A DNA stretch of 64,000 nt from Strigamia acuminata (Eukaryota): assembly GCA_949358305.1 (NCBI GenBank), contig OX442314.1, positions 15,934,001 to 15,998,000 on the forward strand, in the 5' to 3' direction. Every line of letters starts with the position of its first letter. Position 1 is the first letter of the stretch. Made by a program: the position numbers and the translations under genes. Shown piece by piece: positions 398-40,540 of the stretch. The notes under the pieces were generated by a model. It was not told where the DNA came from and did not search any database. It worked only from the letters and a program-made list of their open reading frames with translations.

Positions 398-3846
<3,449 letters not shown>

Positions 3847-5305: not shown

Positions 5306-6597
5306 TTATAGTCGTAAGCGACGTAAATTTCTTCTGCATCCTATCGATCCTATTCGCAGACTCGGTGTAGAAGAGCTGTGACTTCCTCCACCACTACCAG
5401 CAGCGGAAGCCGACATAGAGACTACGCGGCAAATGTGGTTGGCTGTGAACTGGCATTGGCAACGAGAACAAAATCGAAAACAACACGTAGGTGAGATACA
5501 ACTCGCTACTGGCGACGAGGGAAGCACTTGACTCGGACTACAACAACGCATACATTTCACCAAGTATGCACCGTTAGGTAAATGTTTAGCAGCCTTCAAT
5601 CAAAAAACAATAAAATGTTAAAAACACATTTTTACGAAATAAGTCAAACAATTTACTTCTACAAATCGCTCAAAATTTGTAGGTTCCGATCTCGATTCAA
5701 CCGTCGGAACTGGAAAGGGCCGGTTGCTATTATTTAGTGGTGTACACTCTCCAGAACGTGGTGGAACCGGTGGCGGATATCTCTAAAAAATTAAAAATCA
5801 AATTCTATTCAAATTAAAATGTATATACAGTATGTCGTGCCAAGATTTACCGTTTTTGGATTCTCTTTATTTAATACTAGTATTGCCAAAAATAATCGTC
5901 TTTTTTCATTCGCATTTTTATCGTTCTTGCAAAGTTGATTCCAAGTTTTGCTCACGCAGCAAACTGCACTTAAGTTTTCGCCGTTTAAATGCGAGAAAAT
6001 CTTGGATATTATATGCGGAAACGGTATTAAATCATTCAAAATGTCTTTAGTTTCTTGTGGTTTGGACGTGTTACTGTCGTTGTTCGTTAATTCGGGGTCT
6101 GAATTTCGTCGTTTTATAACTCCCGATCCTAATTTGTCTTGAGTATCGCGGTATAGGACTCGTTTACAGAAGGATTTTCGCGTGAATGGCGTACCCGTGT
6201 CGTGAAGGCTTAAACTTCGTCTATTCAATTTTGCCTGGGAAGATTTGATGGGAGATGGTGGCAAAGACGAGTAACCGCTGTCTTGTGTCGGAAGCCGCAA
6301 TTGTAGGAAATTTTTTGGTGTAAATTTTTCATATTGTCTGCCCTCAAACATGACAAATGAGCTTTCATCGTGTTCTGCCTGCAAAGTAAATTTATATATT
6401 TAGAAATTTTTTAGATAAGAGGGGGGATTAACTATTTCCCACGCGACCAATTTCCCTCCTTCCGTTAAACCTCGTCATGTTTTCAAGTTAAAAAATATAT
6501 AACGGTTTTAAAATTTGAAACTTTGTTTTCTAATTATTTTAAATGCAGTACTAAACAGTTGAGAAAATAATGTGCGAAATCTTACATTGAGTTCCAT
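5306..6597 (-). CDS. FBXO5: Emi1/Rca1 (FBXO5/FBXO43-like) APC/C inhibitor
   Basis: Exon 1 MELN|gtaag. DSGYSS beta-TrCP degron, F-box (PFPHIISKIFSHLNGENLSAVCCVSKTWNQLC), Cys-rich zinc-binding region (CMRC..C...CCFRFCSRCQC..H.C) and RL tail RRNLRRLRL*. Confidence 0.88.
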
Positions 6598-7286: not shown

Positions 7287-7502
7287 TTGCGACGACGTTG
7301 TACAGATTTGCGAATGAAGCTTACTTCCGAAGAATATTTAAATACAAATCGCAGCAAAGAATTATCTTGATGTGTACTGATTAAACACTGAAAAATACAA
7401 TCAAATTGCCACACGAACCGAACGTTGTTATATAAAAAAAAGTTTATTTGGTCTTACAACATTATTTCCATCATTCAAATGTGATTGATTACGATCACTT
7501 AA

Positions 7503-10500
7503 CTACTGCGCAGCTTTGCTGATGCTAAACAATTTATTATTTCCGAATAAAGCTGTTGGTAATTCAATTTGTGATAAAATGCTCTTAGGAATTTGTCCAG
7601 TTGGAGGGGCTTTACTATCCGGGATGATTTCACTCACAAGCTACAAGATATAAGAGTTATACCATAATTCATAATCTAAATGCATATAATTTAGCAAAAA
7701 TACGTACATTCTTTATGTCAAACCACCCGATGTCCTCTCTGTTACTGAGCAATGCGGACAAATGTTCTTGAGTCATGTCTGGATAATTATGAATCAACCC
7801 CTACAAAAAAATTACATTGTAAACTATTATTTGCAATGTTTTAAACAACTTACAGAAAGTATCAGCGGCAAAATTTCTTTATCCTTCACTTTGAGTACCT
7901 CAGCAAAACGAACTAAAACATCGGTTAGAGAATCCGCCTAAAATTTAAAAGAACAAGTTAATTCTAAGTTTTATTTAAGTTTTAATGAATGCAAAAATAC
8001 ACCTTTGCCAAATGTGGTGCCAAGTTTTTGATGAGATTTTGTAGTTGCTCCACTTCTCTTATAACTTTTTCAGCGCAATCCTTTCTTTCTTCAAAAGATG
8101 AAAATGTGACGCGCCTTTAAAAAATAAAATAAAATAAAATAAAAATAAATTTTTGAGTGTTTATACTCGAATAAAAAATTCTCTCTTATTTCGAATACTT
8201 TTGAAGCATCGCCGAAATATAATTCTTGCATATTCTCTTCTTAATTTCAGCGATGACATCGTCGTGATTTTTCGGTCTTAAATGTTTATAGTCTTGATGA
8301 AAATCTTCCACTGTGACGCAGATTGTATCCATAGGTGTGTCGCTACTCAGCCATTTCCTAGTCATCAGATCTAGGAAATGTGGTCTGAGATCCATACACA
8401 TCTCGTCCAATAGATAGTTGCACCTATTCATACATCCAATCAAAAATCCATCGTTATTTCCATCATTTAACTCACGTTTGTTCACGAAGCTTCTTGTATG
8501 TCTTTATCAAAGAATCAAACTGACGAACAGCTTCGTCATCGTGCATTCCAGGTTTCCAAATTTGATCTTTCAATTGATGACATAATTCAATGAAATGCAA
8601 ACAATTGTTAACGGCTGCAACCTAAGCAATCAAATTCGTACTCGTTACACAAAATACAAATATAAATTCAATTCAGATTCAAATTCACCATGTAATGAGT
8701 AAAATATTTTATGCTATTTCTGTTCTGCATACAGGTATTTTTGTATTCGATAATTGCTTCTAAAATTACCAAAAATAAACAAAAACATTAAATTAACGAC
8801 AAAATAAATAAACTTGTCGTCATTACCCAAATACATGGTTCCTAAATTGGTCATTTCCGTCATAGACATGCGAAATATTTTAACTACTAAATCAAATCCT
8901 ATCGTTTTGGCAACGGTAAGCTATAATAATAGGAATCGATCAATTTCTTTAAAAATATTTCTGGGTTAATATGTGCACATTTACATTTTGTTCCACCATT
9001 TGAAACACTACAATAGGCAACGTGGTTTGATAACATCCTTCGCCATCTGACTCTGGTTCGATGTCGCGAAACCAATCTTGTTTCTCAGATTCGATAGTTG
9101 TTTTCATCCATTGTGAAAAATTTTGCTCCATTTTGCTTATATATCTGGAATTATGAATTAATTAACGACGTAAAAAGGCAATAATAAAGATTACAAAGTT
9201 ATTACTTAGCCTTTAAGCTCCCTACAGTTCTATCGTCCAACAATGGGCCGACATCTTTAATATTTACATTAATATCGGGATGTTTCAACAATTCGGGACT
9301 CCTAAATTCGGAAACAACTTAACAATTTAATTTAAAAATAAACGATAACTCACTCGTAAGTTTTCAGCCACATAAGAATGCTTATGTACTCATCATTTTC
9401 AAGCCCACACGCAATTATATCTAATAACTAATTTTAAAACTAATAAATTTAATTTTTAATTCAAATATTTTGACACCCTTACGTGTTTAGATAAACAGTT
9501 GTGATACATTTTCACATATTTATTGACAATTTCATAACGAGGTGGAAAGCACTGCACACACAAAGTCTAAACGAAATGAAATAATTATAGACAACAAATT
9601 GTAGTCACTGAACAAAAATAGCTCGTTATACTTTGACCACGCGAAGATCTTCTAAAATCACTTGCCGTGTAATTTCCAAATGTCTTACTAACCACATCGT
9701 ATTTTCATCACGTTCTCCGTACTGATTTTTTTCAAGCCTAGGAATTAAAACGACATTCATTGGTCATTAATAAACCGCACTGGTTGTTGTTTATTTACCT
9801 GTCTTGGATTGTCTGTTCCATGATTACGAAAGCCTTCTTTTTCCATTCCCTCGTTCTTCCTGGAGGAAGGAATCCGGTTTGTTTTTCTAGCTCTAATGAA
9901 AGTTGATCGCTTTTCTCTTCTCTCTCTATAATGCGCATCGCCGTTACGATAAGTTTAGGGTCGCTGCGCACAGTTTGCAACACTCGTTTCAAAATCGACC
10001 ATAAATGCTCGCTCAGCGATTGATATAATTCATCGACACCGGAAAAATACACTTTGAGTTTCTGCAATTACAAACGATCAAATATTATCTGCCCACTTTC
10101 TAAAAAATAATCATTCGACTAACAATTTGATCACTTTTGTTTTGATCTGGAAGTTTGTACATTTGAAACAATAAATCATTCCGTGAATTTTCTAATTCCG
10201 CTAAACTGCAAATAAAAAAAATAAAAAAAATAAAAAAATCAATAAATTTACTTTACTGTCGATGAAAATTATTACCAATAATGAGCTTGTAAATATTTGC
10301 CTTCGTTGATCCAAACATGAGTTTTCTTAACACTTTCTGGAACTGTAAAAATATTTTTCAAATGCTCCATGGCCACGGCATTCTGAAATCGTAAATATAA
10401 ACGAATAAACATTAAAATTGTCGCACATAATCGCGAAGAAAGATGTTCACCTGGAAGTAATTTAAGTGTTCTTCCCTTACGTCTTCCAACTGCTCACGCA

Positions 10501-10944
10501 ACTTCGATACGGTTTTCAACCCTTCATCAATCTCGGACAAACTAAAGTGACAACAAAATGTGCCTAAATTAAAATAACGAAACATCAATTTAATTCATTT
10601 TGTACTTCATTTTAATGTCCTTGACATCTATCAACGTCGTTTGTAATAAATTCAATCCGCTTTTCACACCGTCCAACTGGGATTGCACCGTTGTTTTTAG
10701 TAATGCTTCGACTGAAGCCTGAAAACCAAAAATGCATTTAAAATATTTTAAGCAAAAAGAAATAATTAATACCGGTGCAGCTTATTAGTCACCGCCCACC
10801 TCGTACCTTTTCCCTCAAAGAACTTCGCTTATATTGCTCCACTCTTTCTAACTGATGACTCCTTTGCAGTAAATTTGCTACATGCTTAGCTGATTTAGCC
10901 TTCGCTTGCAATTCTAACTCCTCCACATCCTTGTGTGAAGCCAT
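7503..10944 (-). CDS. EXOC3: Exocyst complex component 3 (Sec6), multi-exon
   Basis: N-terminus MASHKDVEELELQAKAKSAKHVANLLQRSHQLERVEQYKR, then ASVEALLKTTVQSQLDGVKSGL, VRSDPKLIVTAMRIIEREE, GFLPPGRTREWK, DTICVTVEDF. Ends ...SKAAQ* at 7503. Confidence 0.95.
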
Positions 10945-11258: not shown

Positions 11259-12935
11259 CCAAGTGATTTTAATTTGATTCCAATTTGATTCCAATTCCAA
11301 TTCCATTCCAAGTCCCCCACTAAAAGTTTTTAAATTTTCTTTAAGGGCGGGAAAAAAAATGTATTGATAAAATACCGTACCGAAACTGATTACGCGATTA
11401 AGTACCGTAGTATAGAATAAAGTATACAAAGAAATGCAAGGCGTAACCCTTGTAAAAAATAAAAAAAGATGTTTATTTAAAATGCAAATGTGATTGCACT
11501 TAAAACATTAATTGCAGGTACTGTAATTCTGTAACACTCCTAGAAAATGATTCGACCAATACAATTTTGACTAAAAAAAGATGGGTTCACGCAAAGGTTA
11601 GAAATGTTGATTGCCTTCTTATTCTTACCCCATTCCAATTTGATCAGAATGTGATTCAATCAGAAAAGACAAACATTTACCAACCGTGACATAACGCGCC
11701 AAAACTAATTACATTTATAGATTTTGCTATGAAACAACTAATTAGTGGAATTTGAGATTAGTGTGACCGTGTGTTGCCACACTTAATTCTGTTGTAGATA
11801 TTAATGGCACACGTAAACAGGCAGTTCAAAATGATAAGTGATTTTATTACAAAAGATTCGAAGTTTAAATACAAGTTATACAATACAAGGGATTTTCCAA
11901 AATACACTGATTAGTTAAATACACTAATACGTTGACCTCGCGTTTAATCGTTTTATTGTCCACGCGATGTCCATCCCCAGTGGCGGTCAACAGCAACATT
12001 GGCGGTCAGTATAACTCCAACAAATTCCAAACACTCCTAAATGCTCACACAACCTCAACAATCTGTGTAAAAATAAAATAAACACATGGTCATTTTACCA
12101 TTTGTCAAAATTTTTACTACAGCTATCAACAATATAAGTCATATAAGTTGGCATAAAAATAAGAACGGTAGTATCTTACTTCTTAATTGCCAGCTACCAA
12201 GCCAAGCTCTAATAAAAGAGATATTCTTTTGGTTCTATTGACAAATAAATTCCGCTACTAATTAAAATTAATTGGAACTACCCTCAGGTGAAAAAGGAAA
12301 TCAGCACATACTGTATGCCAGTGAATATGTTCAGAAAAGAAAACAGTAATGGTTCAATCGCGCAAAATTTGATGTGCTTTAAAAAAAATCACCATATTTT
12401 AATTGGTCTTATTTTACTTCTCAATTATCACAAAAATCATAAGTATTTTAAAAATCTAAAACTCAAAACTTTTTGCTCGGATGCGAGCTGCGTAGATAAA
12501 CTGTATTATCGATTATAAAGAGCGTGTACAATTTCTGTATGCAAACAAAGCACTTGGTATTGAAAATCATTTTTCGCATAAATAACAAAAATATTTAAAA
12601 AAAATCCGATCCGATTTCAAGTGACTATAGAAAAAAAAAGCAACCAAGCAAACTAAAGCACTTATAATAACAAGTCCGCACTCCGTACACATAGTGTTCA
12701 CTGCTCTAATATTTACCTTGACTAAAGAAACACAAACGAAATACTTATGTAATTTTCAGGCACTTTTTTTTAACCTTGTTTATTTTAAACTGCTATTTGC
12801 TGTACTTGTATGTACATAGCGATACTCAACATGTTTGATAAACAATATGAAAAGCCTAAGTTGACTATAAACTAAGTTTAAAGCAAAAAACTGAAAACTA
12901 TCTTCTAGTTAGAACTTGACTTGTAGCAATACAAC

Positions 12936-15900
12936 ATGTCTCCACATATGGCCATCATTTTTCGGAGAAAAAAAAAACTACGCCGGACAATTCACCACTT
13001 AATGAAAAATGATGCCCATAAACCTCAATGCAATTTAACTGGCTTGGATGATTTCATAAATAGTAAAAACCGTTCGAGCAAGTATCAAGTCTTTTGGCAA
13101 ATTTTGTTCTCATTTTGCATATGCACGCTCATGTATCAGACACACGATAGAATAATGCATTACTTAAGTCGTCCTATGGCTGTTGATGTAATGGCTAAAT
13201 CAGAAGAGGTCGTTTTACCCCATTTAATGTTCTGCAGTGGCAATACAAAAGAATTGATCAAGCTTTGGAATATGAGTTTTGTTAAAATCGAACCTGTAAA
13301 AGATGATTTCGGTCTATCGAGCTTTTCCTGCGTAAACATGGTGAAAACTCTCATGGCAAACGAAACCTACGACATGGATGAACTTTGGAAGGCAACCAAT
13401 ATGACCAAAGAAATTGTTAGCGTAAAAGTGAAAGTAAATAAAATGGTCAAAAGTATTTTTAACACTATATATAAACCCTATTCTTTTTTCTTAGGGATAT
13501 TCAAAAGAAGCATTTGTACAGACAGAAATTGATAGTGGATATGGAATGTGCGCTGCATTTAAATTTCGTAAATATACAAGCATTGTGGTTATTTTTAAAA
13601 TATAAAATTAAACCTTTCTATTACAACAATTAGGTAAAAATTCAACTGAATCGTTTGTTGGAAAATCACTAACCGTAACTTTCAAAAAATATCTTGACTA
13701 CATATGTTATACAGCCATGTATCATGTACAAGTATACAGTATATCTTACACAGTTCATAAATTACATATACCATTTCTAATTTTGCTTAGATTGTACTGT
13801 CAGTAAATGATTTTGGAAAAAACTACTACAGAACAGCAGAATTCAGTGGTTCAACAGAAACTTTAAATATCAGATATAATAAAGTAATACTTAAAAAAAG
13901 TTGCTTTTTCATAGAGCAGATCAAAAGATCAACTGTGTATACTGTAAAATCGTAAACAATACCTTTTCTGCCTTGTGGCTGCACCTTGCATTTACATTAA
14001 TGAACCGATTGTGTTATTGACAATCAATAATGTTTAATGAAAAAGCAAAGTTCTGCGCTTATTGTTGTTCCTATGAAAATGCACCTAACAGAGTAATAAC
14101 TTAGAATTTTATTGTAACTTTTATCTTTTTACATAATTTCAGTATGTATTTCTTAATTCATCTAAAAATCCTTGCTCCGGCGAAAAGGAATACAGAGATT
14201 GCTATTTCAACTGCTTGTCAAAAAAATTTCAAAATCTCCTCACTTGCAGGTAAACTCCCTGATTCTATGTCGTATACTGCATGTGTCTCCAAACGGGCTA
14301 GATTATGGAGTTTTGTATTAACTTGAAGCCTACCATTTTTTTTTAACCATCCGATTTGACTAGCTGCATTCAAAAATTAAAATAACAATTTTAGTGTATT
14401 TTAAGTTTTAACAAGAGTTTAAATAGGAAATGATGTCATTTTTAGTTTAAAATTGAAGTAAAACACAAAATATTTTAGTTTTTGAATGCAGCTAGTGTTA
14501 GAAATATGTTACGAAAATGGGTCCGACATGGATTTTTGCAAAAGACATATTCTTAAAAATTTCTATGCGTAGAAATAAATTAAATTGATTGGCACGCCAA
14601 TATTCACCAAGATATCATTAGTTGAACGACGGAAATTAACATTGATGATATGTTTTTTTTGCAAAAAACCATCAAAACCATTTTCCCCACTCTAAAAAAT
14701 TTTTAAGCTGGAACCATGTTACATTTAATTTTATATTCTTTTAAAGGTATCCTTTTATTACAAATTTGGACATAAATCTACCCCTATGTGAATGTTCAAA
14801 TGCCACAGCACAACAATATGGTATTGTGATGAAACTACTTGAAACGTCAGATCCCATGGCCACTTGCTCATGTCGCCGGCCCTGTCAACAACTGACCTTT
14901 ATACCGTACATTGATTCAGGCACAGCAGATGATGAAATAACAACATCAATAACTTTAGAGATAACTAATGAGAAAGTTAACGTATTTGAAGAACGGTACA
15001 CATACGATGTTATTGCTTTGCTATCAGATCTAGGAGGCAATTTGGGCCTGTTTCTCGGTCTATCACTAATCTCATTAACAGAAACCAGCTGGTATCTATT
15101 TTGGGTTTCATCAACTATTCGCAGGAAAAAACACTTTAATAAACTGTATCATCTTTATGTGAAATGCAGGAAGAAAATAATTGAACGAGATGAGCAAATT
15201 AAAACGAATAGAATCTTGTTAATGCTTCAGCTAATACTGGTTATAATTAGTATAGGATTTACTGTGTACTACTTGAGAAACCGTTTAAACTACTACCTTG
15301 AAGAACCAGTAACAAAAATCGTTACCGTAGTTCCGAGGCAAAATACTGAATATCCTTCTATCACAATCTGTGGTGAAAATAGAAATAAAGAGATGGATGA
15401 AGCCAGATCAAATGTGCTTAATCAGACAAACCAAAAGTGCGATAAATTATCGCCGTGGCAACTTTTCAGTAGCGATTTCTCGTTAGAGGAAATATGGAGT
15501 GTGCTTAGTGTTCACGACACAATGAATGTTAACGACGACATGGCTAAGGTATTCGGCTAAAATGTGAAATTAATATTTTTGTAACCGTTTTATATTTGTA
15601 GCACTTGACTGGATATCCAACATTGCTAAACATAACAAAGACTCTTACTCCACTTCCTTTTGGTCATTGCTCACAAATGCATGCAGGTAATTCCACTAAT
15701 CTCATCTTTTAGGGTGTTTGTGTTTTTGTATTTTTAACAAAACAAAAACACATACATCTAAAACACTTGAATCACGACTTATTGAATACGGCTCTAGCTG
15801 GTGATTGTTTTACTGATGTGTTAATCTGTACTTGGTTCTTAGCTTGATAATATTTTTTTTATAGAAAAAACAAACGACTTGACAGTTCCCTTTTTACTCT

Positions 15901-17009
15901 CATTGGAATATTTGCTTCCTTCTGAAGTATGTTACCAGGACCTATGGGTATGAATAAAATAAAGCACAAATAAAAAATATAATTATTTTTAATTGAAATA
16001 ATTTTCAGTATTTTCTCAATCACCCAGAAGAGGAAATTAACATTTTGGCACCTTCATCTGTAATCTATGGGGCTACAAATGTAGTAAAGCTACGAATATT
16101 TAAGGTAAATAAAATAGTTATATACCTATACCTTATATGCTTATCTACATACTGGCTTAATTTTATGACATTATAGACTATACGAAGAAATGGAAAGCGC
16201 AATCCTTGTGAAGAAAACAAAACTGTTTATTTGAAGTGTAGAAATGCTTGCATACAAAATAATTTACTTCACATGATAAATTGCAGGTACATTTAAAAAA
16301 AAGTCTAATAGAGGCCCGCGGAATATTCAATTTTCTTCAAAAAATGAAAAATTTTTGTATAAAAGACTGAATATTTCCTTTAAAAAATTGAGTGTTTCCT
16401 TTAAAAAACTGAATGTTTCCTTCAAAAAATTGAATATTTCCTTTAAAAAATTGAATATCGCGTCAAAAAATCAAACATTTCATAAAAAATCGGGCCTGTA
16501 ACCTGTGCGTCCGTGCCGCTATTGGAGCCCCGCGTACAATTAAAAGATGTACCGTATTCAGATTATATAACCAAACTCTGGGTATTTGTAAATTCATGTT
16601 ACGGTTTATTTCTGTTCCTTTCAGATTGCCATACATGCCATCACCTAATTTGCCACTGTGCAACAAAGTAGAAGACGTCATGCGCAGCCATTTAATGTAC
16701 TTAAATAATTACAATTCGAATCAAAAAGCATGCAAATGTAAACTACCTTGTGAAAAGACATTTTACGAATCTACAATGCATGGAAGTAAAGTGCCTGTTC
16801 CCTATTTCACATTTGTACAGCTTGAATTAGCTGATACTTTCATAGAGAATTTTATAGAGAAACAAAAATACCCTTTATCGCAATTTTTAAGTGATATAGG
16901 TAGCATTGTAGGATTAGCGTTGGGAATGTCTTTACTCTCTTTATACACTTGCTTATTAAACAGTTATAATTCGTTTAGACGTGATATTGATAGTTTAAAA
17001 AAAAAATAA
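12936..17009 (+). CDS. Tandem two-subunit DEG/ENaC (ASIC/pickpocket-family) channel, 11 exons, 4 TM; paralogue 1
   Basis: Repeat 1: TM1, LPHLMFC, YGMC, Cys-rich thumb CSCRRPC, TM2 LLSDLGGNLGLFLGLSLISLTE. Same exon continues into repeat 2: TM1, YPSITIC; later exons give FGHC, CKCKLPC and TM2 FLSDIGSIVGLALGMSLLSLY. All 10 introns are GT-AG and in frame. Confidence 0.9.
14361..14494. mobile_element. MITE with TAGCTGCATTCAAAAA terminal inverted repeats (intron 5 of channel 1)
   Basis: TAGCTGCATTCAAAAATTAAAATA...TATTTTAGTTTTTGAATGCAGCTA. A second copy with the same interior lies at 34545-34680. Confidence 0.8.
16361..16458. repeat. Degenerate ~21-bp tandem repeat in the last intron of channel 1
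   Basis: 4-5 copies of aaaaaattgaatatttccttt-like units. Confidence 0.6.
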
Positions 17010-17100: not shown

Positions 17101-17733
17101 CAATTTTTCACAAATAAAATGTCAATTTTTCACAAATAAAATGTCAATTTTTCACAAATAAAATGTCAATTTTTCACAAATAAAATGTCAATTTTTCACA
17201 AATAAAATGTCAATTTTTCACAAATAAAATGTCAATTTTTCACAAATAAAATGTCAATTTTTCACAAATAAAATGTCAATTTTTCACAAATAAAATGTCA
17301 ATTTTTCACAAATAAAATGTCAATTTTTCACAAATAAAATGTCAATTTTTCACAAATAAAATGTCAATTTTTCACAAATAAAATGTCAATTTTTCACAAA
17401 TAAAATGTCAATTTTTCACAAATAAAATGTCAATTTTTCACAAATAAAATGTCAATTTTTCACAAATAAAATGTCAATTTTTCACAAATAAAATGTCAAT
17501 TTTTCACAAATAAAATGTCAATTTTTCACAAATAAAATGTCAATTTTTCACAAATAAAATGTCAATTTTTCACAAATAAAATGTCAATTTTTCACAAATA
17601 AAATGTCAATTTTTCACAAATAAAATGTCAATTTTTCACAAATAAAATGTCAATTTTTCACAAATAAAATGTCAATTTTTCACAAATAAAATGTCAATTT
17701 TTCACAAATAAAATGTCAATTTTTCACAAATAA
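17101..17733. repeat. 22-bp minisatellite (CAATTTTTCACAAATAAAATGT) x ~29
   Basis: Head-to-tail, apparently identical units with no spacers. Confidence 0.97.
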
Positions 17734-18242: not shown

Positions 18243-21200
18243 ATGCCTGCAAACATTTCTATCAGCATTCAGCAAAAAAGAAAACTACGGCTGACAATTC
18301 GTAAATTCTTGAAAGATGATGCAAACAAACCGAGTTGCGATCTAACTGGTTTGGATAATTTTATAAGCACTAAAATACGTTCGAGCAAGTATCATGCGTT
18401 TTGGCTACTTTTGTTCTTATTTTGCACATGCATGCTCACTTATCAGACACATGATAGAATGATGCATTATTTAAGTCGTCCTGTAGCCGTCGACGTAACT
18501 AGCACGTCCGACAATGTCAAATTGCCAGACTTGTTGGTCTGTGGTAGCAACACAAAAGAAATGGTCAGACTTTGGAACAAGACTTTTGTAAAACTTGATA
18601 CCGCAAAAGAGGAATTCAGTCTTTCGAGCTTTAAATGCGTAAACATGATGAAAACTCTGATGGCAAACCAAACCTACAACATGGATGAACTGTGGAAGGC
18701 TACCAATATCACCAAGGAAATTGTTAGCATTAAAATGAAAGTAAAAAAAAAAAATTTAAAATTTTATTTATTATAAAAATAGAACTTTAAACATTATTTT
18801 ACGCACAGGGATATTCAAATGAAAGTGTCGTTCAGACAGTAAGAGGCGATGTGTATGGAATATGTTCAGCGTTTAAATTTGGTCTGTACATTACACCTTA
18901 TGTTTATAGTTTTTAATTATTTTAAAAAATGATCTATTTTGATTACGTGTGTGGACTTGGCCCACCAAAATGTTGGCTGTTACCTAACTTTCAGCCAAAT
19001 AGACCAACATAGGTGTTCCTAATTCATACACAAATTTTGTTTAGCCACTAACTCAAGTAAATCGTTTGTTGGGAAATCCCTAACCGTGAAGTTTGAAAAA
19101 ATAAACGATGACGTGTGTCCTTCAGCTATGTACTATGTAATTTGAATGCGCTTCTGTTGGTTAAAAATATGCAATTCATCATTTTAGTCCTTCCGTTTAC
19201 TTAGATTGGATTCGCATATAATGATTTTGGAAAAAAATTCTTTTCAACATCAAAATTTTCCGGTACAACAACAAAAATCAATCTTAGTTATGACAAAGTA
19301 AAATTCGAAACCAAAAACCAACTTAGATCAAAATATGCCAACAGTTTGACTTCTACTTACATTTTCAGTACATATTTCTAAACTCATCTGAAAACACGTG
19401 CTCCAGCGAAAATGAATACAAAGACTGCTACTTCAAATGCTTAGCAAAAAAATTAAGAGACAAACTAACCTGCAGGTAAAGACTGAATTTAATGCCTATA
19501 GTGATCATCATAAGCGTAATATAACTTTTCATATTCTTTTCAAGACTCCCTTTTATTAATAATACGATAACAAATCTACCTCTATGCGAATGTTCAAACA
19601 CCACGCATGAACTATACGCTAAAGCACTTGAAATAATTATATCAACGGACGCAATTGCTGATTGTTCATGTAGACGTCAATGTCAACAACTAAGTTTTAC
19701 ACCAAATATCGATGCAGCTTTAGCGGAAGATGAAAAAATTACATCAATATCCTTAGAAATAACTAATGAGAAAATGTACGTGTACAACGAAAGATACTCA
19801 TACGACGTTATTGCTTTACTGTCCGACTTGGGAGGCAATTTGGGCCTGTTTCTCGGTCTGTCACTAATCTCTTTTAGTGAAACCATTTGGTATTTATGTT
19901 ACAAAATGTTACAAAGTATTCGCAAAAAAAGACACGTTTATAAGATTCAGCGTTTGTATGAGATATGCAAAAAGATAGTGATTGCACAACATGAGCCAAT
20001 TAAAACAGATGGAATCTTATTGAAACTCAAGCTAATACTCGTTGCAATTAGTACGGGATTCACTTTATACTACTTGAAAAATCGTTTAAATTACTACAAC
20101 GATGAACCTGTAACAAAAACTGTCACCGTAGTACAGCGGGCCTATACTGAATTTCCTTCTGTCACCGTCTGTGGTGAAAATAAAAATGGGGAAATGGACA
20201 AAGGCCGATTGCGTTTGATGGAACAGACAAACAAAATATGCAGTAACATATCGCCCTGGAAATTGTTTAATGACGAATTGCCATTGGAAGATATATGGGA
20301 TTCACTTAATGTCCACGAAAATATTAATCTTGACGGCGATATGACTGTGGTATGTGGCAAAAACAAAATATATTCTACAAAGTTCTCATTGTTTTAGATT
20401 TACAGCATTTGAATGGATACGCAACTAAGCTAAATGTGACGAAAAAGCTTATTCCACTTCCTTTTGGCAATTGCTCACAAGTGCATGCAGGTAATTTAAC
20501 TTACAGAAGTTAATTATAGATGTTAATTACCTAATGATTCCGTTTTTTATAATATTTTTTAGATAATTCAAAGGAATTGACAGTTTACTTTTTAGTTTCA
20601 TTGGAATTTCTTGAACCACCAGAGGAATGTGAGCAGGAACTATGGGTACTGGCACGATGAAACCATTTGCACAAAAAAGACTTAATCTTTGAAATTAAAA
20701 CACTAAAAGCTAAGTAAAGAACGGCAATAATAGCAGGATTAGCTAAAAAAAAATTAGGTGTTTTTGTTTAAGTGTTTTTAATGTAAACACCATTTAAAAC
20801 TTGGGTTTTTTTGTCACAAAATAAGTTTACTTATAGAATAATTTTGAATTACAATAATTTCCAGTACTTTATGAACCCACCAGAAGAGGACGTTGATATT
20901 TTGAGACCAATGTCGGGAAACTATGGGTCGTCAAACGTAGTAACGATCCGAGTATTTAAGGTAATAAACATTTGCCTCAAACAGAAAAATAAAACAAATC
21001 CTTATACCAACTTAATTTATCAATAGACTATACGAAGAAATCTACAGCGCAAACCTTGTGAAATAAACACTGTTAATTATTTCAAATGTATTCGTGAGTG
21101 CAAGCAAAACAATTTATTTCAAATGCTTAAATGCAGGTAAAAAACGTTCACTCAAATTTTGCTTGGAGTAAACCAAACGCTTGTTTCAGATTACCATACA

Positions 21201-21586
21201 TGCTGACAACTAATTTACCTCTGTGTAACACAACAGACGATGTCACTAATGCCCATTCAATGTACTTAAGGAAATATAACTCGAATCAAAAAGAATGTAA
21301 ATGTAAACAACCTTGCACTAAAACATTTTACCAAACTAGCGTGCATGAAATTGCAATCCCTGTTAAGTTTTACACATTTCTACGGTTTGGATTATCTGAT
21401 AATTTCATAGAAACTATAACGGAGAAAGAACAATATCCAATTGCACAATTATTAAGCGATGTAGGCAGCATTTTAGGATTGACTTTGGGGATGTCATTAT
21501 TGTCTTTATACATTTGCATTCTAGAGACTTATAATTGGTTTCGATCCAATATAACTAGTGGATTTGGCCGTTCAAAAAGACAATGA
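18243..21586 (+). CDS. Tandem two-subunit DEG/ENaC channel, 11 exons, 4 TM; paralogue 2
   Basis: Same exon structure as paralogue 1. LPDLLVC, YGIC, CSCRRQC, TM2 LLSDLGGNLGLFLGLSLISFSE, then in the same exon second TM1 and FPSVTVC; later FGNC, CKCKQPC, TM2 LLSDVGSILGLTLGMSLLSLY. Frame intact throughout. Confidence 0.9.
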
Positions 21587-21753: not shown

Positions 21754-22052
21754 GTAGTTTTTTAAAATTTTAATGTACCGTGTATACCAATTACAATAGC
21801 ACCTAAGAAATTTTAGCACTACTTTATAAAATTTGTCATTAAAATAAAAGTTAAAATTATACCGTACTGAATTTATATAATGGCAAAAAAAAGAAAACTT
21901 GTAGTTGTAGAGTTAAGTTCATTTCCATTAACAAAATCCCTACTACCCCTACTACCATAAAATTTTCAACACATAATAAATGCATTATTAAATACTGATT
22001 TATGTCAATAGCAGCAAAATAAATTTTAAAAGAACCTCGAGACTAATTTCAA

Positions 22053-24321
22053 CTACAAGATACTACATCCACAGCAACACTTTTGAGGATAGTTAGGTGC
22101 GTACACTTTGTTTTCAAAACCATATACGAAAAAATAATCCGTATTTTCTTTCCACGTGTAATACACTTGAGTAACTGGTACAATTCGAACTCTGTGTCTC
22201 TGAAAGAAAGAGAGAGAGAGAGAGAGAGAGACTATTTTGATCTCTTCATTCTAAGATGAATTCTAGGCTTAATCAACAACAACTACTTGGTTGCCGTTGC
22301 TTATCGCTACGTAGAATTTACTTTCCGAAATGTTTTATAAAATTTTACACCTTACTTGGAACAGATGCAAATAAATATCCTAAGAAAAGTAAACATCTAA
22401 CCCTTCCTTATTTTCCAACTTTATAAATCAGCCGCATTGCTCACACGCCGTTGCTTTTCGTCCACGAATCCATTAAACAACGGCGCGCATTAGCAATACA
22501 AGAATTAGTCACCAGATTTCTCTGTAGTCATCGTCAGAGAAAGCATTTTTTAAAAAAAATACCGGTAGCTCGTTCGTAGGTAAGGAATTTATATTTATTT
22601 GCTTCTGTTACAGTGACAGAAAAAAAAAATACCTGACGGATAATTTTTTCCTCAGTATAATCTATATTATGCTGTTGAACTAATTTTGAAGATGCGATAT
22701 TGACAGCTTGGTCTGGGAAATGGTTTATCGGCCAAACCTAAACACCAAAGAATTTATTTTATATTTAATAATTACTCTACTGGTGATGATCACGACGATT
22801 ATGATTATTTTATTTTAATACTCTCGGTAAATCCTCTTCAAAAGCTAACTGGCCACTAACTGTGCGAACTAAATCGTCAGGCAATGACGTGCGTTCTACG
22901 ATGTAATCGCTTACATGATTTTTCCTAACAAATAAAAAATCTTTAATTTATATTTTATTAAAACTGAACAATTTACCAAGACAGACGAAGTTGATTATAA
23001 TGTTTAAGCTTTCCCTTTCCGCTACATGAGTCGCACTCTATTTGTCCATGTCCATCGCACCGTACGCACCTACATATAATCAGTATTGAAAAATGCCAGT
23101 TTCTTAGAGTTTCATCTTCCAATATTGTCCTACCTCGTTTTCGTATGACCGTGACAAGAAGAGCAAGTTTCATCATTATATCGGCGTCCAGTTCCAGAGC
23201 AAGACGAGCAATTTACCTTTCAATTAAATCAGTTATATCAGCTCTCAAAAGCTTCAACTTGTATATTTTATGATCTCACTTGTCCATCACCATAACATTG
23301 TGTACATCTTCGTCTACCGGTAGCAGCACAACGATGACATGATTTTACAGATGCCGTATGGGGCACTTCAGTCATCATTTTAGTTTCATTGTACGCAGAG
23401 GGAGGTGAAACTGCAATTTCCCATGCCCTAGGGGCTGGTCCGTTCGCGCTTGAATCGATGGTTTGGCCTACAAGAAAATTATAAAACGTAATAAACAAAT
23501 TAAAACACATTAGGCGCATTTATAAAGTCATTTAGACGAAACAGCATTTTAAACAACATATTTTAACTGCTTGTCTCGATCTAAATTCAAAATGGCGGCC
23601 GATTTAGTCTGTTTTCATGCGCACTATATTTAAAGAAGAAAACATGTTTAACTGCTAATTAAACTTGTATTTAAAAATTGCGCCTACTAAAATTATTATA
23701 CTACCATAATATGGCTCACTCGTCCAACGAGTTTGGCGCGATTCTCCAAAAGTTTCCAAAGTATACTGAAATTTGTAAGTGTCAAAAGTGTATAGAAAAA
23801 AAATGGAGTAATGTGTGAATTACATGGAAAGCTGAAGTGTTTTCAATACTTTGAAAAATCATTTTTTCAGCTGCTGATTTGCCATAACAACAATGCTCGG
23901 AAACGAAATTTAGAAGAGCTTCTCTAGCTTGATCTTCGGTCAGTGCTGGATAACTTGTAAAACTGCTTCTTGAAGGTGGTTGACCATGGTATGCGTGGTC
24001 ACTAGCCGGGGGTGAAAGTGATGCTAAATTTGATTTATTAATTATAGCACGACTTGCATTTTTTTATTTTACTTTTTGTTGTATAACTTACCAACATCGA
24101 ATGAAACGTTTTCATAACCATGAACTTTATCCATCAGCTCAACAGGAGGCGCTGATGCGAGAAGATCAACAGGTTCTTTACTCTCACCAGAGACGCCATT
24201 ACTAGCATCTAAATTTATTTATAATATAATTAATATCTTATACAATATATTTTTTCCATTGAGATTTAATTAGTTTACCTGAAGCCATTTACTCCGATGG
24301 ATGAGTTAATGTAACATTCAT
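22053..24321 (-). CDS. SSUH2-like protein, copy 1 (10 exons; TAA at codon 11 followed by in-frame ATG at 24288)
   Basis: SAPPVELMDKVHGYE, EDQAREALLNFVSEHCCYG, YTLETFGESR, EVPHTASVKSCHRC, CxxCxGxG repeats, YFFVYGFENKVYAPNYPQKCCCGCSIL*. Confidence 0.85.
22209..22232. repeat. (GA)n microsatellite in the last intron of SSUH2-like copy 1
   Basis: About 12 GA units. The same site is shorter in copy 2. Confidence 0.85.
23511..23686. mobile_element. MITE with TAGGCGCATTT terminal inverted repeats in an SSUH2-like intron
   Basis: Inverted ends are visible. Also present at 30534-30704 (13-bp perfect TIR) and absent from the short equivalent intron of copy 3. Confidence 0.75.
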
Positions 24322-26219
24322 TGGTGGTGGATTTCTTAATACAAATAGAAAGTGAAATATGCAAGCTTTTTATCTAAACATTACAATGGTAAATAAAATA
24401 GTCACGGAATATGTAAAAAATATTTTACCGAATCAAATTATGTTGGTAATTATTTTGGATATTTTGATAGATTGCACTGAAAAATTACCAATTATTAAAT
24501 ATTAGGGTTCTCTTCTTTTCCTTAACACGATGTTGAATTTAATGTTCACCCTTTGAAACTCCAATGGGAAAAATTTAAAAATGTTGAATGCCAATATTCA
24601 TGTTATTTAAATTTACTTTTTCTGGCTATTTAGTTACTCAATAGTCAATACGTTATGTTTTAGCAAATTTACCTACTTACGCTGTGTGAGCCATCGTTTA
24701 CATTCAAAATAGCTTAGGGGGAGTACGAAATATCTTATCAAAACAACGTGCTTTTGTTGTGATAAAAATGGTTATGTAATGTGCAGATGTGATTGCACTC
24801 AAAAAATTAATTGCAGGTACTGTTAACCCTTCTAGAAAATGTTTTGCCCAATACAATTTTGACTAAAAAAAGATGGGTTCACATGAAATGTTGATTACCT
24901 TCTTATTCTTACTCCATTCCAATTTTATCAATGTGATTCAATCAGAAAAGACAAACATTTACCAACCGTGACATAACGTGCCCAAAACTAATTACATTTA
25001 TAGATTTTGCTATGAAACAACTAATTAGTGGAATTAAAGATTAGTGTGACCGTGTGTTGCCACACTTAATTCTGTTGTAGATATTAATGGCACACATAAA
25101 CAGGCAGTTCAAAATGATAAGTGATTTTATTACAAAAGATTCGAAGTTTAAATACAAGTTATACAACACAAGGGATTATCCAAAATACACTTGATTAGTT
25201 AAAGTTACACTAATACGTTGACCTCGCGGTTTATCGTTTTATTGTCCACGCGACGTTCATGCCCAGTGGCGGTCAACAGCAACATTGGCGGTCAGTAAAA
25301 CTCCAACAAATTCCAAACACTCCTAAATGCTCACACAACCACAACAATCTGTGTAAAAATAAAATAAACACATGGTCATTTTACAATTTGTCAAAATTTT
25401 TACTACAGCTATCAACAATATAAGTCATAATAGTTGGCATAAAAATAAGAACGGTAGTATCTTACTTCTTAATTGCCAGCTACCAAGCCAAGCTCTAATA
25501 AAAGAGATATTCTTTTGGTTCTATTGACAAATAAATTCCGCTACTAATTAAAATTAATTGGAACTACCCTCAGGTGAAAGAGGAAATCAGCACATACTGA
25601 ATGCCAGTGAATATTGTTCAGAAAAGAAAACAGTAATGGTTCAATCGCGCAAAATTTGATGTGCTTTCAAAAAAAAATTACCATATTTTAATTAGTCTTA
25701 TTTTACTTCTCAATTATCACAAAAATCATAAGTATTTTAAAAATCTAAAACTCAAAACTTTTTGCTCGGATGCGAGCTGCGTAGATAAACTGTATTATCG
25801 ATTATAAAGAGCGTGTACAATTTCTGTATGCAAACAAAGCACTTGGTATTGAAAATCATTTTTCGCATAAATAACAAAAATATTTAAAAAAAATCCGATT
25901 TCAAGTAACTATAGAAAAAAAAAGCAACCAAGCAAACTAAAGCACTTATAATAACAAGTCCGCACTCCGTAGACATAATGTTCGCTGCTCTAATATTTAC
26001 CTTGACTAAAGAAACACAAACGAAATACTTACGTAATTTTCAGACACTTTTTTTTAACCTTGTTTATTTTAAACTGCTATTTGCTGTACTTGTATGTACA
26101 TAGCGATACTCAAAATGTTTGATAAACAATATGAAAAGCCCAAGTTGACTATAAACTAAGTTTAAACCAAAAAACTGAAAACTATCTTCTAGTTAGAACT
26201 TGACTTGTAGCAATACAAC

Positions 26220-26403
26220 ATGTCTCCACATATGGCCATCATTTTTCGGAGAAAAAAAAAACTACGCCGGACAATTCACCACTTAATGAAAAATGATGCC
26301 CATAAACCTCAATGCAATTTAACTGGCTTGGATGATTTCATAAATAGTAAAAACCGTTCGAGCAAGTATCAAGTCTTTTGGCAAATTTTGTTCTCATTTT
26401 GCA
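26220..26403 (+). pseudogene. Truncated exon-1 fragment of channel paralogue 1
   Basis: Matches 12936-13119 (MSPHMAII...ILFSFC), then breaks into duplicated upstream sequence. Confidence 0.9.
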
Positions 26404-27029
26404 ACATTTACAAACATTTACCAATCGTGACATAACGTGCCACCAAAACTAATTACATTTATAGATTTTGCTATGAAACAACTAATTAGTGGAATTTGAG
26501 ATTAGTGTGACCGTGTGTTGCCACACTTAATTCTGTTGTAAATATTAATGGCACACGTAAACAGGCAGTTCAAAATGATAAGTGATTTTATTACAAAAGA
26601 TTCGAAGTTTAAATACAACTTATACAACACAAGGGATTATCCAAAATACCCTGATTAGTTAAATATACACTAATACGTTGACCTTGCGTTTTATCGTTTT
26701 ATCGTCCACGCGATGTCCATCCCCAATGGCGGTCAACAGCAACATTGGCGGTCAGTAAATCTCCAACAAATTCCAAAACACTCCTAAATGCTCACACAAC
26801 CTCAACAATCTGTGTAAAAATAAAATAAACACATGTTCATTTTACCATTTGTCAACATTTTTACTACAGCTCTCAACAATATAAGCCATAATAGAACAGT
26901 ATCGTACTTCTTAATTGCCAGCTACCAAGCTAAGCTCTAATAAAAGAGATATTCTTTCTGTTCTGTTGACAAATAAATTCCACTACTATCATTAATTGGA
27001 TGTACCCTCAGGTGAAAGAGGAAATCAGC

Positions 27030-27384
27030 AACAAAGCAGAAGACATCATGCGCAGCCATTTAATGTACTTAAATAATTATAACTCGAATCAAACAGCATG
27101 CAAATGTAAACTACCTTGTGAAAAAACATTTTACGAATCTACAATGCGTGTAAGTAAAGTGCCTGATTCCTATTTCCCATTTGTACAGCTTGAATTAGCT
27201 GATACTTTCATAGAGAATTTTATAGAGAAACAAAAATACCCTTTATCGCAATTTTTAAGTGATATACCGTATAGGTAGCATTGTAGGATTAATGTTGGGA
27301 ATGTCAATACTCTCTTTATACAATTGCCTATTAAAAAGTTATAATTCGTTTAAACGTATTATTGATAGTTTAAACAAAAAATGA
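27030..27384 (+). pseudogene. Last-exon fragment of channel paralogue 1 with frameshift
   Basis: Matches 16662-17010. A small insertion after SDI (gatataccgtataggtagc versus gatataggtagc) shifts the frame before TM2. Confidence 0.9.
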
Positions 27385-27716
27385 AACATTTCTTCTTACG
27401 ATTACCGTAAGCCCTCATGTCATGAAACTGAACAAATAGTCTATAATTATGAAAGTTTTGACTATGTTTGCTCTTAGTAAACTACTCTAATACTAATATT
27501 TATCCACTTGATAAACAAGTAACATAAACAGTTATTAAGCGCTCACTTTTTAAAAACCTTGTTTGTTTTTTTTTACTAAATTTAGCTCTTTACATAACGC
27601 CGTACTCACATAACAGAACGCATAATAATTATTTCAGACAAATAAACAACACACAATTGATTGATAAGCGAAAACATAATAATTGTTCTTCACTCTGGAC
27701 AAGTCAGCAGTAGAGC

Positions 27717-28669
27717 ATGCCTGCAAACATTGCCATCAGTTTTCAGCAAAAGAGAAAACTACTGTCACGGGCAGGCTACCCACCCTCTTTTTATTTTCAT
27801 TTTTTAACTTAGACTAATCCATCTTAACTTATTGTCCCTTTATTCTTTTATCCTCTTTTGATTTGATGACTCATTTTTCTATAATAAATGTGCGAATAAG
27901 ACTTTGCGCATCCTATTATTCTCAATAATCGAATTCCTATATCTACCTTTCACCCCTTGATTTACCTTTACATGATCCGGTCACATGACCAGGTTAACTT
28001 AATGTCATCTAACCCAACTGAAATCACTTCTCTACCCACTCTCGACTGATACACATGTCTTAGACCAGGGGTCGGCAAGTAATTTTAAGTGGGGTCCGGA
28101 TACTATGGAAAATTTTTTATCGAGGTCCGGAAAAGAAACGCTTTTAAAAACCTTGCTAAAAACTTAAGAAAACGGAAAAAAAAACACTTAAAAACCAAAT
28201 AAACCCCCCAATCAACACACACAACCCAAAAAATACCAATGAAACCGAAAAAACACGAAAAAAAAAAACAGGAAAAACAAGAAAAAACACTGAAAAACCA
28301 AAGAAACCGAAGGAAAAACGTCGCTAAAACGTCACCGCGGTACAAGTTTCGACCTTTCGCGGTTCGGATACGGAGTTCTGATCCCGTCGAATATGAAATA
28401 ATGTTGAGTCACTGTGTGACCGGACACCTTTAATTGCCTGATGTCAAAATTTGAGATATAGTTAAATTAATTTCTAACATTCAAATTAATCGTGACACTA
28501 CGTCTGACAATTCGTAAATTTATGAATGATGATGCAAACAAACCAAGTTGCGATCTAACTGGTTTGGATAATTTTATAAGCACTAAAATACGTTTGAGCA
28601 AGTATCATGCCTTTTGGCTACTTTTGTTCTTATTTTGCACATGTATGCTAATTTATCAGACACATGATA
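27717..28669 (+). pseudogene. Exon-1 fragment of channel paralogue 2, interrupted by a solo LTR and truncated at a MITE
   Basis: MPANIAISFQQKRKL / RLTIRKFMNDDANKPSCDLTGL...YQTHD matches 18243-18456. Confidence 0.9.
27763..28497. mobile_element. Solo LTR (735 bp), probably Ty3/Gypsy-like
   Basis: Termini TGTCACG...CGTGACA with 4-bp target duplication CTAC on both sides. The empty site AAACTACGGCTG is in the intact paralogue at ~18282-18293. Confidence 0.9.
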
Positions 28670-28671
28670 TA

Positions 28672-28954
28672 CAGGGTGTTCTAAAAGTCTGGTCCCCTCC
28701 AAATATATCCTCAGCAATTGCATCTTGGCCAACTTTGATGAAGCGATCGTATAGGAAGTTTGGTGAGAGCAATCCAATGATGTCATCAAATTTGACCTTG
28801 AAGGCCATTTTCAAGGTGACTAAGATAAATTGGATAGTACTAATTTGATGGTGCTCTAAAACTTTCTAATTGAAAATTTTTCTCTAACCTGATTGGTTTA
28901 GAAGTTAGCAAGTTAATGACCATTTGGAGGGGACCAGACTTTTAGAACACCCTG
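28672..28954. mobile_element. Tc1/mariner-type MITE (283 bp)
   Basis: 33-bp perfect TIR CAGGGTGTTCTAAAAGTCTGGTCCCCTCCAAAT, flanked by TA at both ends. Confidence 0.92.
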
Positions 28955-29070
28955 TAGACTACACCTACTACCATAAAATTTTTAACACACACAATAAATG
29001 CATTATTAAATACTGATTTATTTCAATGGCAGCAAAATCATTTTTAAAAGAAACTCGAGACTTATTTCAA

Positions 29071-40061: not shown

Positions 40062-40540
40062 ATGTTGCGTGTTGTACTTTTCTCAACTTTCGTTCTAGCT
40101 GCATTCTGTAAGAAATGTTTAATTTAAAGTTATATAATCACTAGTGTTGTTGCCTGTCTTTATTTGTAACATTTGTATTTTTAAAGGTGCCAGTGTATGG
40201 ATCACTGAAAGATCGCCTTCACACTTTCGAGTGAACACCGCAAAACCATTAACTTGTTTAACTACTGGCTTAAAAACCCCGATTACTTACAATTGGTTCA
40301 ATATTTCAAGACCTTACAATCAAACGTTTCCAAACTCTAATCATTCTACGCTGTATTTTACCTTTCGCACGCGAATTCCAAAATATGCAAGAATAGTTTG
40401 TCAAGCCAAGGGATTCCGCGATCGTTATTTCACCAACTCTTCAGCGCTCTCATATTATGGTATAATTCTTTTAAAAAAATATACATGTCAATAGTTTTAC
40501 TTTACATAATTTTACATTTTGTGTTGCAGTGACCTTTTAA
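40062..40540 (+). CDS. Small secreted single Ig-like domain protein (3 exons)
   Basis: MLRVVLFSTFVLAAF|C ASVWITERSPSHFRVNTAKPLTCLTTGLKTPITYNW...IVCQAKG...YY|VTF*. TATA-like ctataaag near 39988. Homologous to the Ig genes at 51.7-58.2 kb. Confidence 0.75.

What the first reader, a model, noticed from the sequence alone, without database searches (positions are those of the whole stretch)
12936..17009. Natural two-subunit concatemer of a DEG/ENaC channel (4-TM tandem protein)
Seen: one spliced frame encodes two complete DEG/ENaC subunits, each with TM1, a PxxxxC post-TM1 motif, a GxC motif, a Cys-rich thumb and an SDxGxxxGLxLGxS TM2. TM2 of repeat 1, a short basic linker (about 35-40 aa, RRKKHFNK...RKKII) and TM1 of repeat 2 all lie in one uninterrupted exon (~14747-15549), so this is not a gene-prediction merge. 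Established: DEG/ENaC/ASIC/pickpocket channels are trimers of 2-TM subunits. Inference: a covalent dimer cannot complete a trimer alone. It would need a third free subunit, leave one repeat outside the pore, be cleaved at the basic linker, or cross-link two trimers (3 chains = 2 pores). I do not recall a characterised example of this architecture.
Basis: partly seen in the sequence, partly recalled or inferred. Interest (0 to 1): 0.92.

Follow-up and report, generated by a model that had tools for sequence, protein, structure and literature searches.

The report
Two fused ion-channel subunits, one gene
This gene, likely from a centipede, encodes two different subunits of a normally three-part sodium-channel family in one reading frame, a layout shared by a neighbouring copy and about twenty database relatives; the chain likely fills two of the channel's three places and would need a third subunit from elsewhere.

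Summary
Confirmed, and larger than reported. Eleven GT-AG exons (12936-17009) give one 807-aa frame with two complete DEG/ENaC repeats about 21% alike; TM2, a 37-aa linker and the next TM1 lie in one exon. An intact paralog follows at 18243-21586. Both repeats carry five introns in the same phases at matching places, so two six-exon paralogs fused. The junction recurs in 22 database proteins of one clade, 13 of them named Strigamia maritima. Repeat 1 keeps the usual pore helix; repeat 2 has changed it at the gate (Gly at 3' in 24 of 24 against 1 of 10). Separate three-repeat, single-chain forms occur in Strigamia and in decapods. Closest studied channels are the centipede homotrimers BRTNaC1 and PDPNaC1. 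Best reading (0.45): the chain fills two places of one asymmetric trimer and a free subunit fills the third. No transcript of this gene was available, no partner is identified, and function is untested. Ten literature searches found no description.

The parts
12936..17009 (+). Gene A: two-repeat DEG/ENaC, 11 coding exons, 807 aa
12936..13433 (+). Exon 1: N-terminus with a degenerate HG-position motif (CNLTGL, 13029-13046), TM1 of repeat 1 (13089-13148), start of ectodomain 1
13495..14249 (+). Exons 2-5 (13495-13567, 13634-13725, 13791-13883, 14143-14249): ectodomain 1; intron phases 0,1,0,0,2
14747..15548 (+). Exon 6, the junction exon: thumb and TM2 of repeat 1, linker, TM1 and early ectodomain of repeat 2
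15003..15101 (+). TM2 of repeat 1, usual pore motif (Gly 3', Asn 4', Phe 8', Glu 18'); dN/dS to paralog 0.09
15102..15212 (+). 37-aa basic linker, inferred cytosolic; resembles the N-terminus of repeat 1; dN/dS to paralog about 1, length kept
15213..15281 (+). TM1 of repeat 2; dN/dS 0.23
15602..16286 (+). Exons 7-10 (15602-15686, 15865-15947, 16009-16104, 16177-16286): ectodomain 2; intron phases 0,1,0,0,2
16625..17009 (+). Exon 11: thumb and TM2 of repeat 2 (16869-16958; Ser 3', Ala 8', no acid at 18'; dN/dS 0.17), 16-aa tail, stop
18243..21586 (+). Gene B: intact paralog, 11 exons, 812 aa, 59% identical, same exon lengths in 9 of 11 exons; junction exon 19545-20349
26220..27385 (+). Broken A-like copy: first 61 codons, then part of the last exon with a frameshift in TM2
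27717..28680 (+). Broken B-like copy: start of exon 1, interrupted by an insertion, then truncated

Best explanation
The gene encodes two different DEG/ENaC subunits in one reading frame; the chain likely occupies two neighbouring places of one three-part cation channel, and a separately encoded subunit would fill the third. Shown by sequence: the single frame, the intact paralog, the matching intron pattern of the two repeats, the family, and the different pore helices. Inferred origin: two neighbouring six-exon paralogs fused when the last coding exon of the first lost its stop and joined the first coding exon of the second, whose N-terminus became the linker; the fused gene then multiplied. 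Inferred working: both repeats fold as subunits, the cytosolic linker fixes their order, repeat 1 gives a usual pore face, and repeat 2 gives one altered face (Ser or Asn at the 3' gate, a small residue at 8', no acid at 18'), which a pore would tolerate best once per trimer. The result would be a fixed asymmetric 2+1 channel, probably a poorly selective sensory cation channel like the related centipede antennal channels. The gating stimulus cannot be read from the sequence.
For: One frame, GT-AG introns, junction inside one exon in both A and B. All five introns of repeat 1 and repeat 2 share phase; 3 of 5 fall in the same alignment column, one is 1 column off and one 3 columns off, in three alignment modes. 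30 of the 150 listed hits show a TM2-then-TM1 junction; 22 of them fall in the two-repeat family, 13 named S. maritima, 1 unnamed, 8 not looked up. The unnamed one (P0021) is a 241-aa product called on a 1154-base contig and spans the junction. The repeats of the family form one clade (SH-aLRT 91) and most repeat-2 sequences group together (88). TM2 of repeat 2 is under purifying selection (dN/dS 0.17) and keeps Asp/Asn 0' and mostly Ser/Cys 12'. Position 3': Gly in 24 of 24 repeat 1, 50 of 56 single subunits, 1 of 10 repeat 2; aromatic 8': 20 of 24, 42 of 56, 1 of 10; acid 18': 18 of 24, 46 of 56, 1 of 9. The 3' Gly is the narrowest gate in PDPNaC1 (PMC12714832, passages). An AlphaFold2 model of the full two-repeat homolog P0010 has pLDDT 73 and pTM 0.70 and matches BRTNaC1 and PDPNaC1 best; that pTM hints at a fixed relation of the repeats. 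Three-repeat chains with linkers of similar length exist. Single subunits with a usual TM2 exist in Strigamia (P0041, P0030). Chain counts in PDB 9pzn/9pzo (2 and 4 chains in 2 entries) indicate a 1:2 pickpocket heterotrimer.
Against: No transcript or protein evidence for this gene. No third subunit is identified; the whole genome was not available and the window holds no free subunit. The linker's amino acids are not conserved beyond neutral between A and B (dN/dS 0.97 on 37 codons). An engineered two-subunit ASIC1a fusion gave currents with no partner added, though with breakdown products (PMC4529235, passages), so chains alone may assemble. The changed pore helix of repeat 2 and its lack of an HG motif also fit a place outside the pore (PDPNaC1 works without HG). 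The model's coordinates could not be inspected, it is of a 23-26% identical homolog, and AlphaFold may copy the known trimer. In one subfamily (P0009) repeat 2 groups with its own repeat 1 (support 100), so a single origin does not hold for all. Most family members are fragmentary predicted gene models whose exon structure I could not see.
Confidence: 0.45

Rival explanations
1. Chains assemble without a free partner: two chains make one pore with one repeat left outside, or three chains make two linked pores.
For: An engineered ASIC1a dimer gave typical currents in oocytes (PMC4529235, passages). No partner gene lies in the window and no single-subunit sequence with its own N-terminus falls clearly inside the family clade.
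Against: Breakdown products cloud that experiment. Two linked pores of mixed make-up need one pore with two repeat-2 helices, each with a larger residue at the gate. An unpaired repeat would expose its assembly faces (inference).
Confidence: 0.27
2. Repeat 1 forms a homotrimeric pore from three chains; repeat 2 is a tethered accessory or sensing module outside the pore.
For: All usual pore residues sit in repeat 1; repeat 2 lacks Gly 3', aromatic 8', acid 18' and an HG motif. Ectodomain 2 evolves faster (dN/dS 0.61 against 0.32).
Against: TM2 of repeat 2 is constrained (dN/dS 0.17) and keeps Asp 0'. The two-repeat model has pTM 0.70. No known DEG/ENaC uses a whole subunit this way (recalled).
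Confidence: 0.13
3. The frame is continuous but two separate subunits are made, by protein cleavage, an internal start, or splicing out of repeat 2.
For: The linker is basic and variable. A weak possible donor lies just after TM2 in both genes (15091, score 3.5; 19889, score 5.7) and AATAAA occurs at 15138.
Against: Those donor scores are within the range of other exonic GT sites and mostly below true donors; AATAAA occurs in other coding exons and not in B's linker; no in-frame ATG is conserved; furin-type motif in 3 of 23 linkers, no skip motif. Repeat 1 has no stop of its own.
Confidence: 0.1
4. A recent read-through accident or a non-functional fusion.
For: Broken copies lie nearby. The open linker of A and B alone has a 10-14% chance under neutrality.
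Against: Both genes are intact over 807 and 812 codons with overall dN/dS 0.43; all ten introns differ in length between A and B while nine of eleven exons are equal; the junction recurs in 22 further proteins, down to 22% identity.
Confidence: 0.05

Closest known systems
BRTNaC1 (Scolopendra heat-activated channel, PDB 8ymr; PMC9974506)
   Same: Compact DEG/ENaC subunit of about 430 aa; best fold match to the two-repeat model (E 1.6e-18) and best sequence match to the last exon.
   Different: One subunit per chain, two TM helices, seven exons, homotrimer; only about 20% identical, so heat gating cannot be transferred.
PDPNaC1 (Scolopendra proton-dissociation channel, PDB 9jf7; PMC12714832)
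   Same: Best sequence match to the junction exon (E 3e-9); compact ectodomain; lacks the HG motif, as repeat 2 does.
   Different: Single 421-aa subunit, homotrimer, nine exons; Gly at the 3' gate in all three subunits.
Heterotrimeric ENaC and the pickpocket heterotrimer (PDB 9pzn/9pzo)
   Same: An asymmetric pore made of unlike subunits, which is how this protein most likely works.
   Different: Subunits come from separate genes; order is set by assembly, not by a covalent link.
Engineered ASIC concatemers (PMC4529235, PMC10329638)
   Same: Head-to-tail subunits joined on the cytosolic side give working channels.
   Different: Artificial, keep full termini plus added linkers; here the link is natural, the tail and HG region between repeats are largely lost, and the repeats have diverged.
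K2P, TPC, Nav and Cav channels (recalled, not tested)
   Same: Natural fusion of channel subunits into one chain with later divergence of the repeats.
   Different: Two or four repeats divide a four-fold pore evenly; two repeats do not divide a three-fold pore.

Membership tests
DEG/ENaC (Pfam PF00858) | ASC domain above the curated cut-off | tested here: met
   Three exon frames each pass 23.6 bits; the junction exon has two stretches. The spliced protein itself was not scanned; full-length homologs score 111-145 bits with 3-4 stretches.
DEG/ENaC (Pfam PF00858) | TM1, Cys-rich ectodomain, TM2 in each subunit | tested here: met
   Both repeats: 13 and 12 Cys, aligned end to end; homolog model shows both repeats folded and matches family structures.
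DEG/ENaC (Pfam PF00858) | TM2 with Asp 0' and G-x-S tract | tested here: met
   GLS in repeat 1 and GMS in repeat 2. Repeat 2 departs at 3', 8' and 18'.
DEG/ENaC (Pfam PF00858) | Pre-TM1 His-Gly motif | tested here: not met
   TG in repeat 1, none in repeat 2. Not strictly defining: PDPNaC1 lacks it and 43.4% of insect PPKs have it.
DEG/ENaC (Pfam PF00858) | One two-TM subunit per polypeptide | tested here: not met
   Two subunits in one frame; filed as a variant of the family for this reason. The test is on DNA, not on the protein made.
DEG/ENaC (Pfam PF00858) | Trimeric assembly | not testable with these tools
   Two chains, or a chain plus a full subunit, exceed the 1000-residue limit of the complex tool; no complex job was sent.
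DEG/ENaC (Pfam PF00858) | Voltage-independent cation current, usually amiloride-sensitive | not testable with these tools
   Needs expression and recording.
BRTNaC1 / PDPNaC1 orthologs | Orthology and conserved gating residues | tested here: inconclusive
   Only weak local matches (E 3e-9 to 4e-7); their full sequences were not in my trees. Not filed as an ortholog.

The most novel reading that the evidence does not exclude
The two-repeat chains need no partner: three chains build two covalently linked pores, or longer linked arrays, so that centipedes have a family of coupled double-pore sensory channels, one branch of a wider arthropod trend to put two or three DEG/ENaC subunits in one chain.
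Probability: 0.15. Interest if true: 0.93.

Novelty: new variant of a known kind. Interest (0 to 1): 0.74.

Why it matters
The reviews and surveys I checked describe DEG/ENaC subunits as two-helix chains that trimerise, and long multi-domain entries are easily dismissed as merged gene models. Here the junction lies inside one exon, is kept in two intact paralogs and recurs across a family, so natural concatemers are real at the gene level. A two-subunit chain in a three-fold channel poses a clear assembly question that one expression experiment can answer. With the three-repeat forms in Strigamia and decapods, it offers a natural series (1, 2, 3 repeats) for studying how fixed subunit order lets each pore face specialise, as happened in Nav and Cav channels. 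It also points to an unannotated, expanded family of candidate sensory receptors in a blind soil centipede lineage.

Tried and rejected
No RNA holder listed for the locus; this is no evidence on expression. A third repeat up- or downstream: profile scans of all six frames found ASC pieces only in genes A, B and the broken copies. Common descent with the decapod three-repeat proteins: profile scores (166-183 against 371-376 to myriapod single subunits) and the tree favour separate origins; at about 20% identity this is suggestive only, and no clade test was run. Word-index protein searches found 1, 1 and 13 proteins and no spliced transcript product from this family that I could recognise. The ESM Atlas gave only ordinary ASC clusters of 378-412 aa. 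Earlier findings of the scan: none by sequence or by words. The fold of a three-repeat protein (P0027) was low in confidence (pLDDT 64, pTM 0.47) and is inconclusive. In alignment A2 the four terminal-exon rows were placed on the other repeat; they are homologous there, but the alignment behind the model is imperfect. My TM1/TM2 profiles included the halves of A and B, so their scores on A and B are circular; Gly 2' and Gly 10' are fixed by the search pattern and are not evidence. The bacterial promoter scan does not apply to an animal gene and was ignored. No complex prediction was sent: trimmed trimers would tend to pass by likeness to solved structures. P0031 (leech), P0063 (beetle) and P0022 (midge) may be merged gene models and were not counted in the family. 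The full spliced protein was not searched or folded; single exons and database homologs stood in for it.
Full report
Observation. The region 12936-17009 holds eleven exons bounded by GT-AG that join into one frame of 807 residues. It contains two full DEG/ENaC subunits that align end to end but are only about 21% identical. Pfam PF00858 passes its cut-off in exon 1, the junction exon and the last exon. TM2 of repeat 1, a 37-residue linker and TM1 of repeat 2 lie in exon 6 (14747-15548) with no stop, so the join does not depend on a predicted intron. Contigs of two public runs read through the linker with no difference; they may be the assembly's source and show only that the sequence is not a slip. 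The other exon boundaries are predictions; no RNA run was listed.

Surroundings. A second intact gene of the same build follows at 18243-21586 (812 aa, 59% identical). Nine of eleven exons have equal length in the two genes while all ten introns differ. Overall dN/dS is 0.43; TM2 of repeat 1 gives 0.09, TM1 of repeat 2 gives 0.23 and TM2 of repeat 2 gives 0.17, but the linker gives 0.97 on 37 codons. Broken copies lie at 26220-27385 and 27717-28680. Profile scans of all six frames find no third repeat and no free subunit in the window.

Origin. Each repeat is interrupted by five introns in phases 0,1,0,0,2. Three of the five fall in the same alignment column in both repeats, one is one column off and one three columns off. 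This is what the fusion of two neighbouring six-exon paralogs leaves: the last coding exon of one and the first of the next became exon 6. The linker aligns with the basic N-terminus of repeat 1, and two relatives keep a PG motif there like that before TM1 of the single subunit P0041. The order of events is inferred.

Family. A search with the junction exon gave 362 proteins at E 0.001; the best 150 were listed and examined. Thirty of the 150 show TM2 followed by TM1, and 45 show a junction or at least two TM2 matches. Twenty-two belong with A and B in a two-repeat family: 13 are named as uncharacterised Strigamia maritima proteins, one is an unnamed 241-aa product on a 1154-base contig, and eight were not looked up. 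Three look complete (P0009, P0010, P0016). The closest share 51-55% identity with the junction exon, so the window likely comes from a related soil centipede; this is inferred from these proteins alone. In a tree of 85 repeats the family is one clade (SH-aLRT 91) among myriapod-type compact subunits (97); most repeat-2 sequences group together (88), repeat 1 has no support as a clade, and in the P0009 subfamily repeat 2 joins its own repeat 1 (100). Rows under 200 residues were left out of the groups. Most of these entries are fragmentary gene models, and I could not see their exons.

Pore helices. Counting from the Asp at 0', Gly at 3' is found in 24 of 24 repeat-1 helices, 50 of 56 single subunits and 1 of 10 repeat-2 helices; an aromatic residue at 8' in 20 of 24, 42 of 56 and 1 of 10; an acid at 18' in 18 of 24, 46 of 56 and 1 of 9. 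Related sequences are not independent counts. The 3' Gly is the narrowest gate of PDPNaC1 and acid at 18' sets sodium selectivity in ASIC. Repeat 2 is thus a constrained but altered pore helix.

Three-repeat chains. Thirteen of the 150 hits have three TM2 matches. They include a separate Strigamia family (P0005, P0006), Halocaridina rubra P0035, unnamed 1268-1272-aa proteins on contigs of 4.4-4.7 kb, and a group of about 1000-1050 aa with a shrunken middle ectodomain, one cluster of which holds a Penaeus vannamei protein and five contigs of 3.4-4.0 kb. A whole frame on a contig barely longer than itself is either a transcript or an intronless gene; either way the single frame needs no splicing model. 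Profiles and tree favour origins separate from the two-repeat family. A fold of one of them was inconclusive.

Structure. The two-repeat homolog P0010 folds with pLDDT 73 and pTM 0.70, with a long helix running from TM2 into the linker, a low-confidence turn and then TM1. Its best matches are BRTNaC1 and PDPNaC1. The pTM hints that the repeats have a fixed relation, but I could not inspect the coordinates and the method may echo known trimers.

Mechanism. That the gene encodes a functional two-subunit chain I put at about 0.85-0.9. For assembly, the best reading (0.45) is two neighbouring places of one trimer plus a free subunit: repeat 2's helix is conserved enough to line a pore yet carries a larger gate residue best tolerated once; linkers of this length also occur in three-repeat chains; free subunits with a usual pore exist in Strigamia; and a 1:2 pickpocket heterotrimer is indicated in the PDB. 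Against it, no partner is known and an engineered ASIC1a dimer passed current alone. Rivals are chain-only assembly (0.27), repeat 2 outside the pore (0.13), separate products (0.10) and a non-functional accident (0.05). Cleavage by furin is unlikely because the linker is cytosolic by the family's topology (established knowledge) and the motif is rare. A sensory role is inferred from the two studied centipede relatives and from the family's expansion.

Literature. Ten searches listed no paper on natural tandem DEG/ENaCs; the library lacks most subscription journals. What I saw: PMC9974506, parts 1-2 of 5; PMC12714832, part 1 of 9 and passages; passages from term searches in PMC9822975, PMC8438182 (46 of 578 insect PPKs had three to five predicted helices, with no mention of tandem or fused forms), PMC5203786, PMC7067487, PMC10329638, PMC4529235, PMC8536179, PMC10148893 and PMC10507113; abstract and outline of PMC5449180; and no hit for ENaC terms in the main text of the Strigamia genome paper PMC4244043. 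I read no supplements, and did not see the BRTNaC1 structure paper or the Vizueta 2020 survey; any of these could mention such proteins. The comparison with K2P, TPC, Nav and Cav channels is recalled.

Verdict. A real, conserved and apparently undescribed architecture within a known family: a new variant of a known kind, interest 0.74.

Noticed in passing
P0049, P0141, P0035: Single-chain three-repeat DEG/ENaCs of 1244-1272 aa; one named from the shrimp Halocaridina rubra, others as whole frames on 4.4-4.7 kb contigs. Each repeat position forms its own clade. A whole trimer in one chain; worth a study of its own.
   Followed up: partly
P0027, P0074, P0081/P0155, P0105, P0112, P0134: Six-helix proteins of about 1000-1050 aa, one cluster with a Penaeus vannamei member, in which the middle repeat keeps its helices and a Cys-rich part but has lost most of its ectodomain.
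   Followed up: partly
P0005, P0006, P0007, P0015: A second Strigamia family with three closely related repeats, all with usual pore helices, separate from the two-repeat family.
   Followed up: partly
last repeats of both families: The last repeat of the decapod three-repeat proteins also tends to have a small residue at 8', like repeat 2 here; convergence or remote kinship is open.
   Followed up: partly
window 15091 and 19889: A weak possible splice donor just after TM2 of repeat 1 in both genes; if used it could give a one-subunit form. Scores are not above exonic background.
   Followed up: partly
window 17101-17733: Tandem array of a 21-base unit directly after gene A.
   Followed up: no
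window 11464-13119 / 24764-26403 and 21942-24725 / 28958-31768: Recent local duplications (95.6% and 92.5% identity) that copied the upstream region and start of gene A and the next gene.
   Followed up: partly
window 14359-14499: A very high-copy repeat element inside intron 5 of gene A.
   Followed up: no
window 600-2210 (-), 4752-5123 (+), 5809-6399 (-), 7500-10900 (-): Neighbours that look like MCM3, a tRNA-splicing endonuclease subunit, an F-box protein and exocyst Sec6 (names recalled from the translations, not tested).
   Followed up: no
window 38000-48100 (+) and 51800-58200 (-): A Trk-like receptor tyrosine kinase and a repeated array of Ig-like exons (recalled translations).
   Followed up: no
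window 61461-63125 (-): A 554-aa frame resembling a retrotransposon gag protein with Ala/Gln repeats (label recalled).
   Followed up: no
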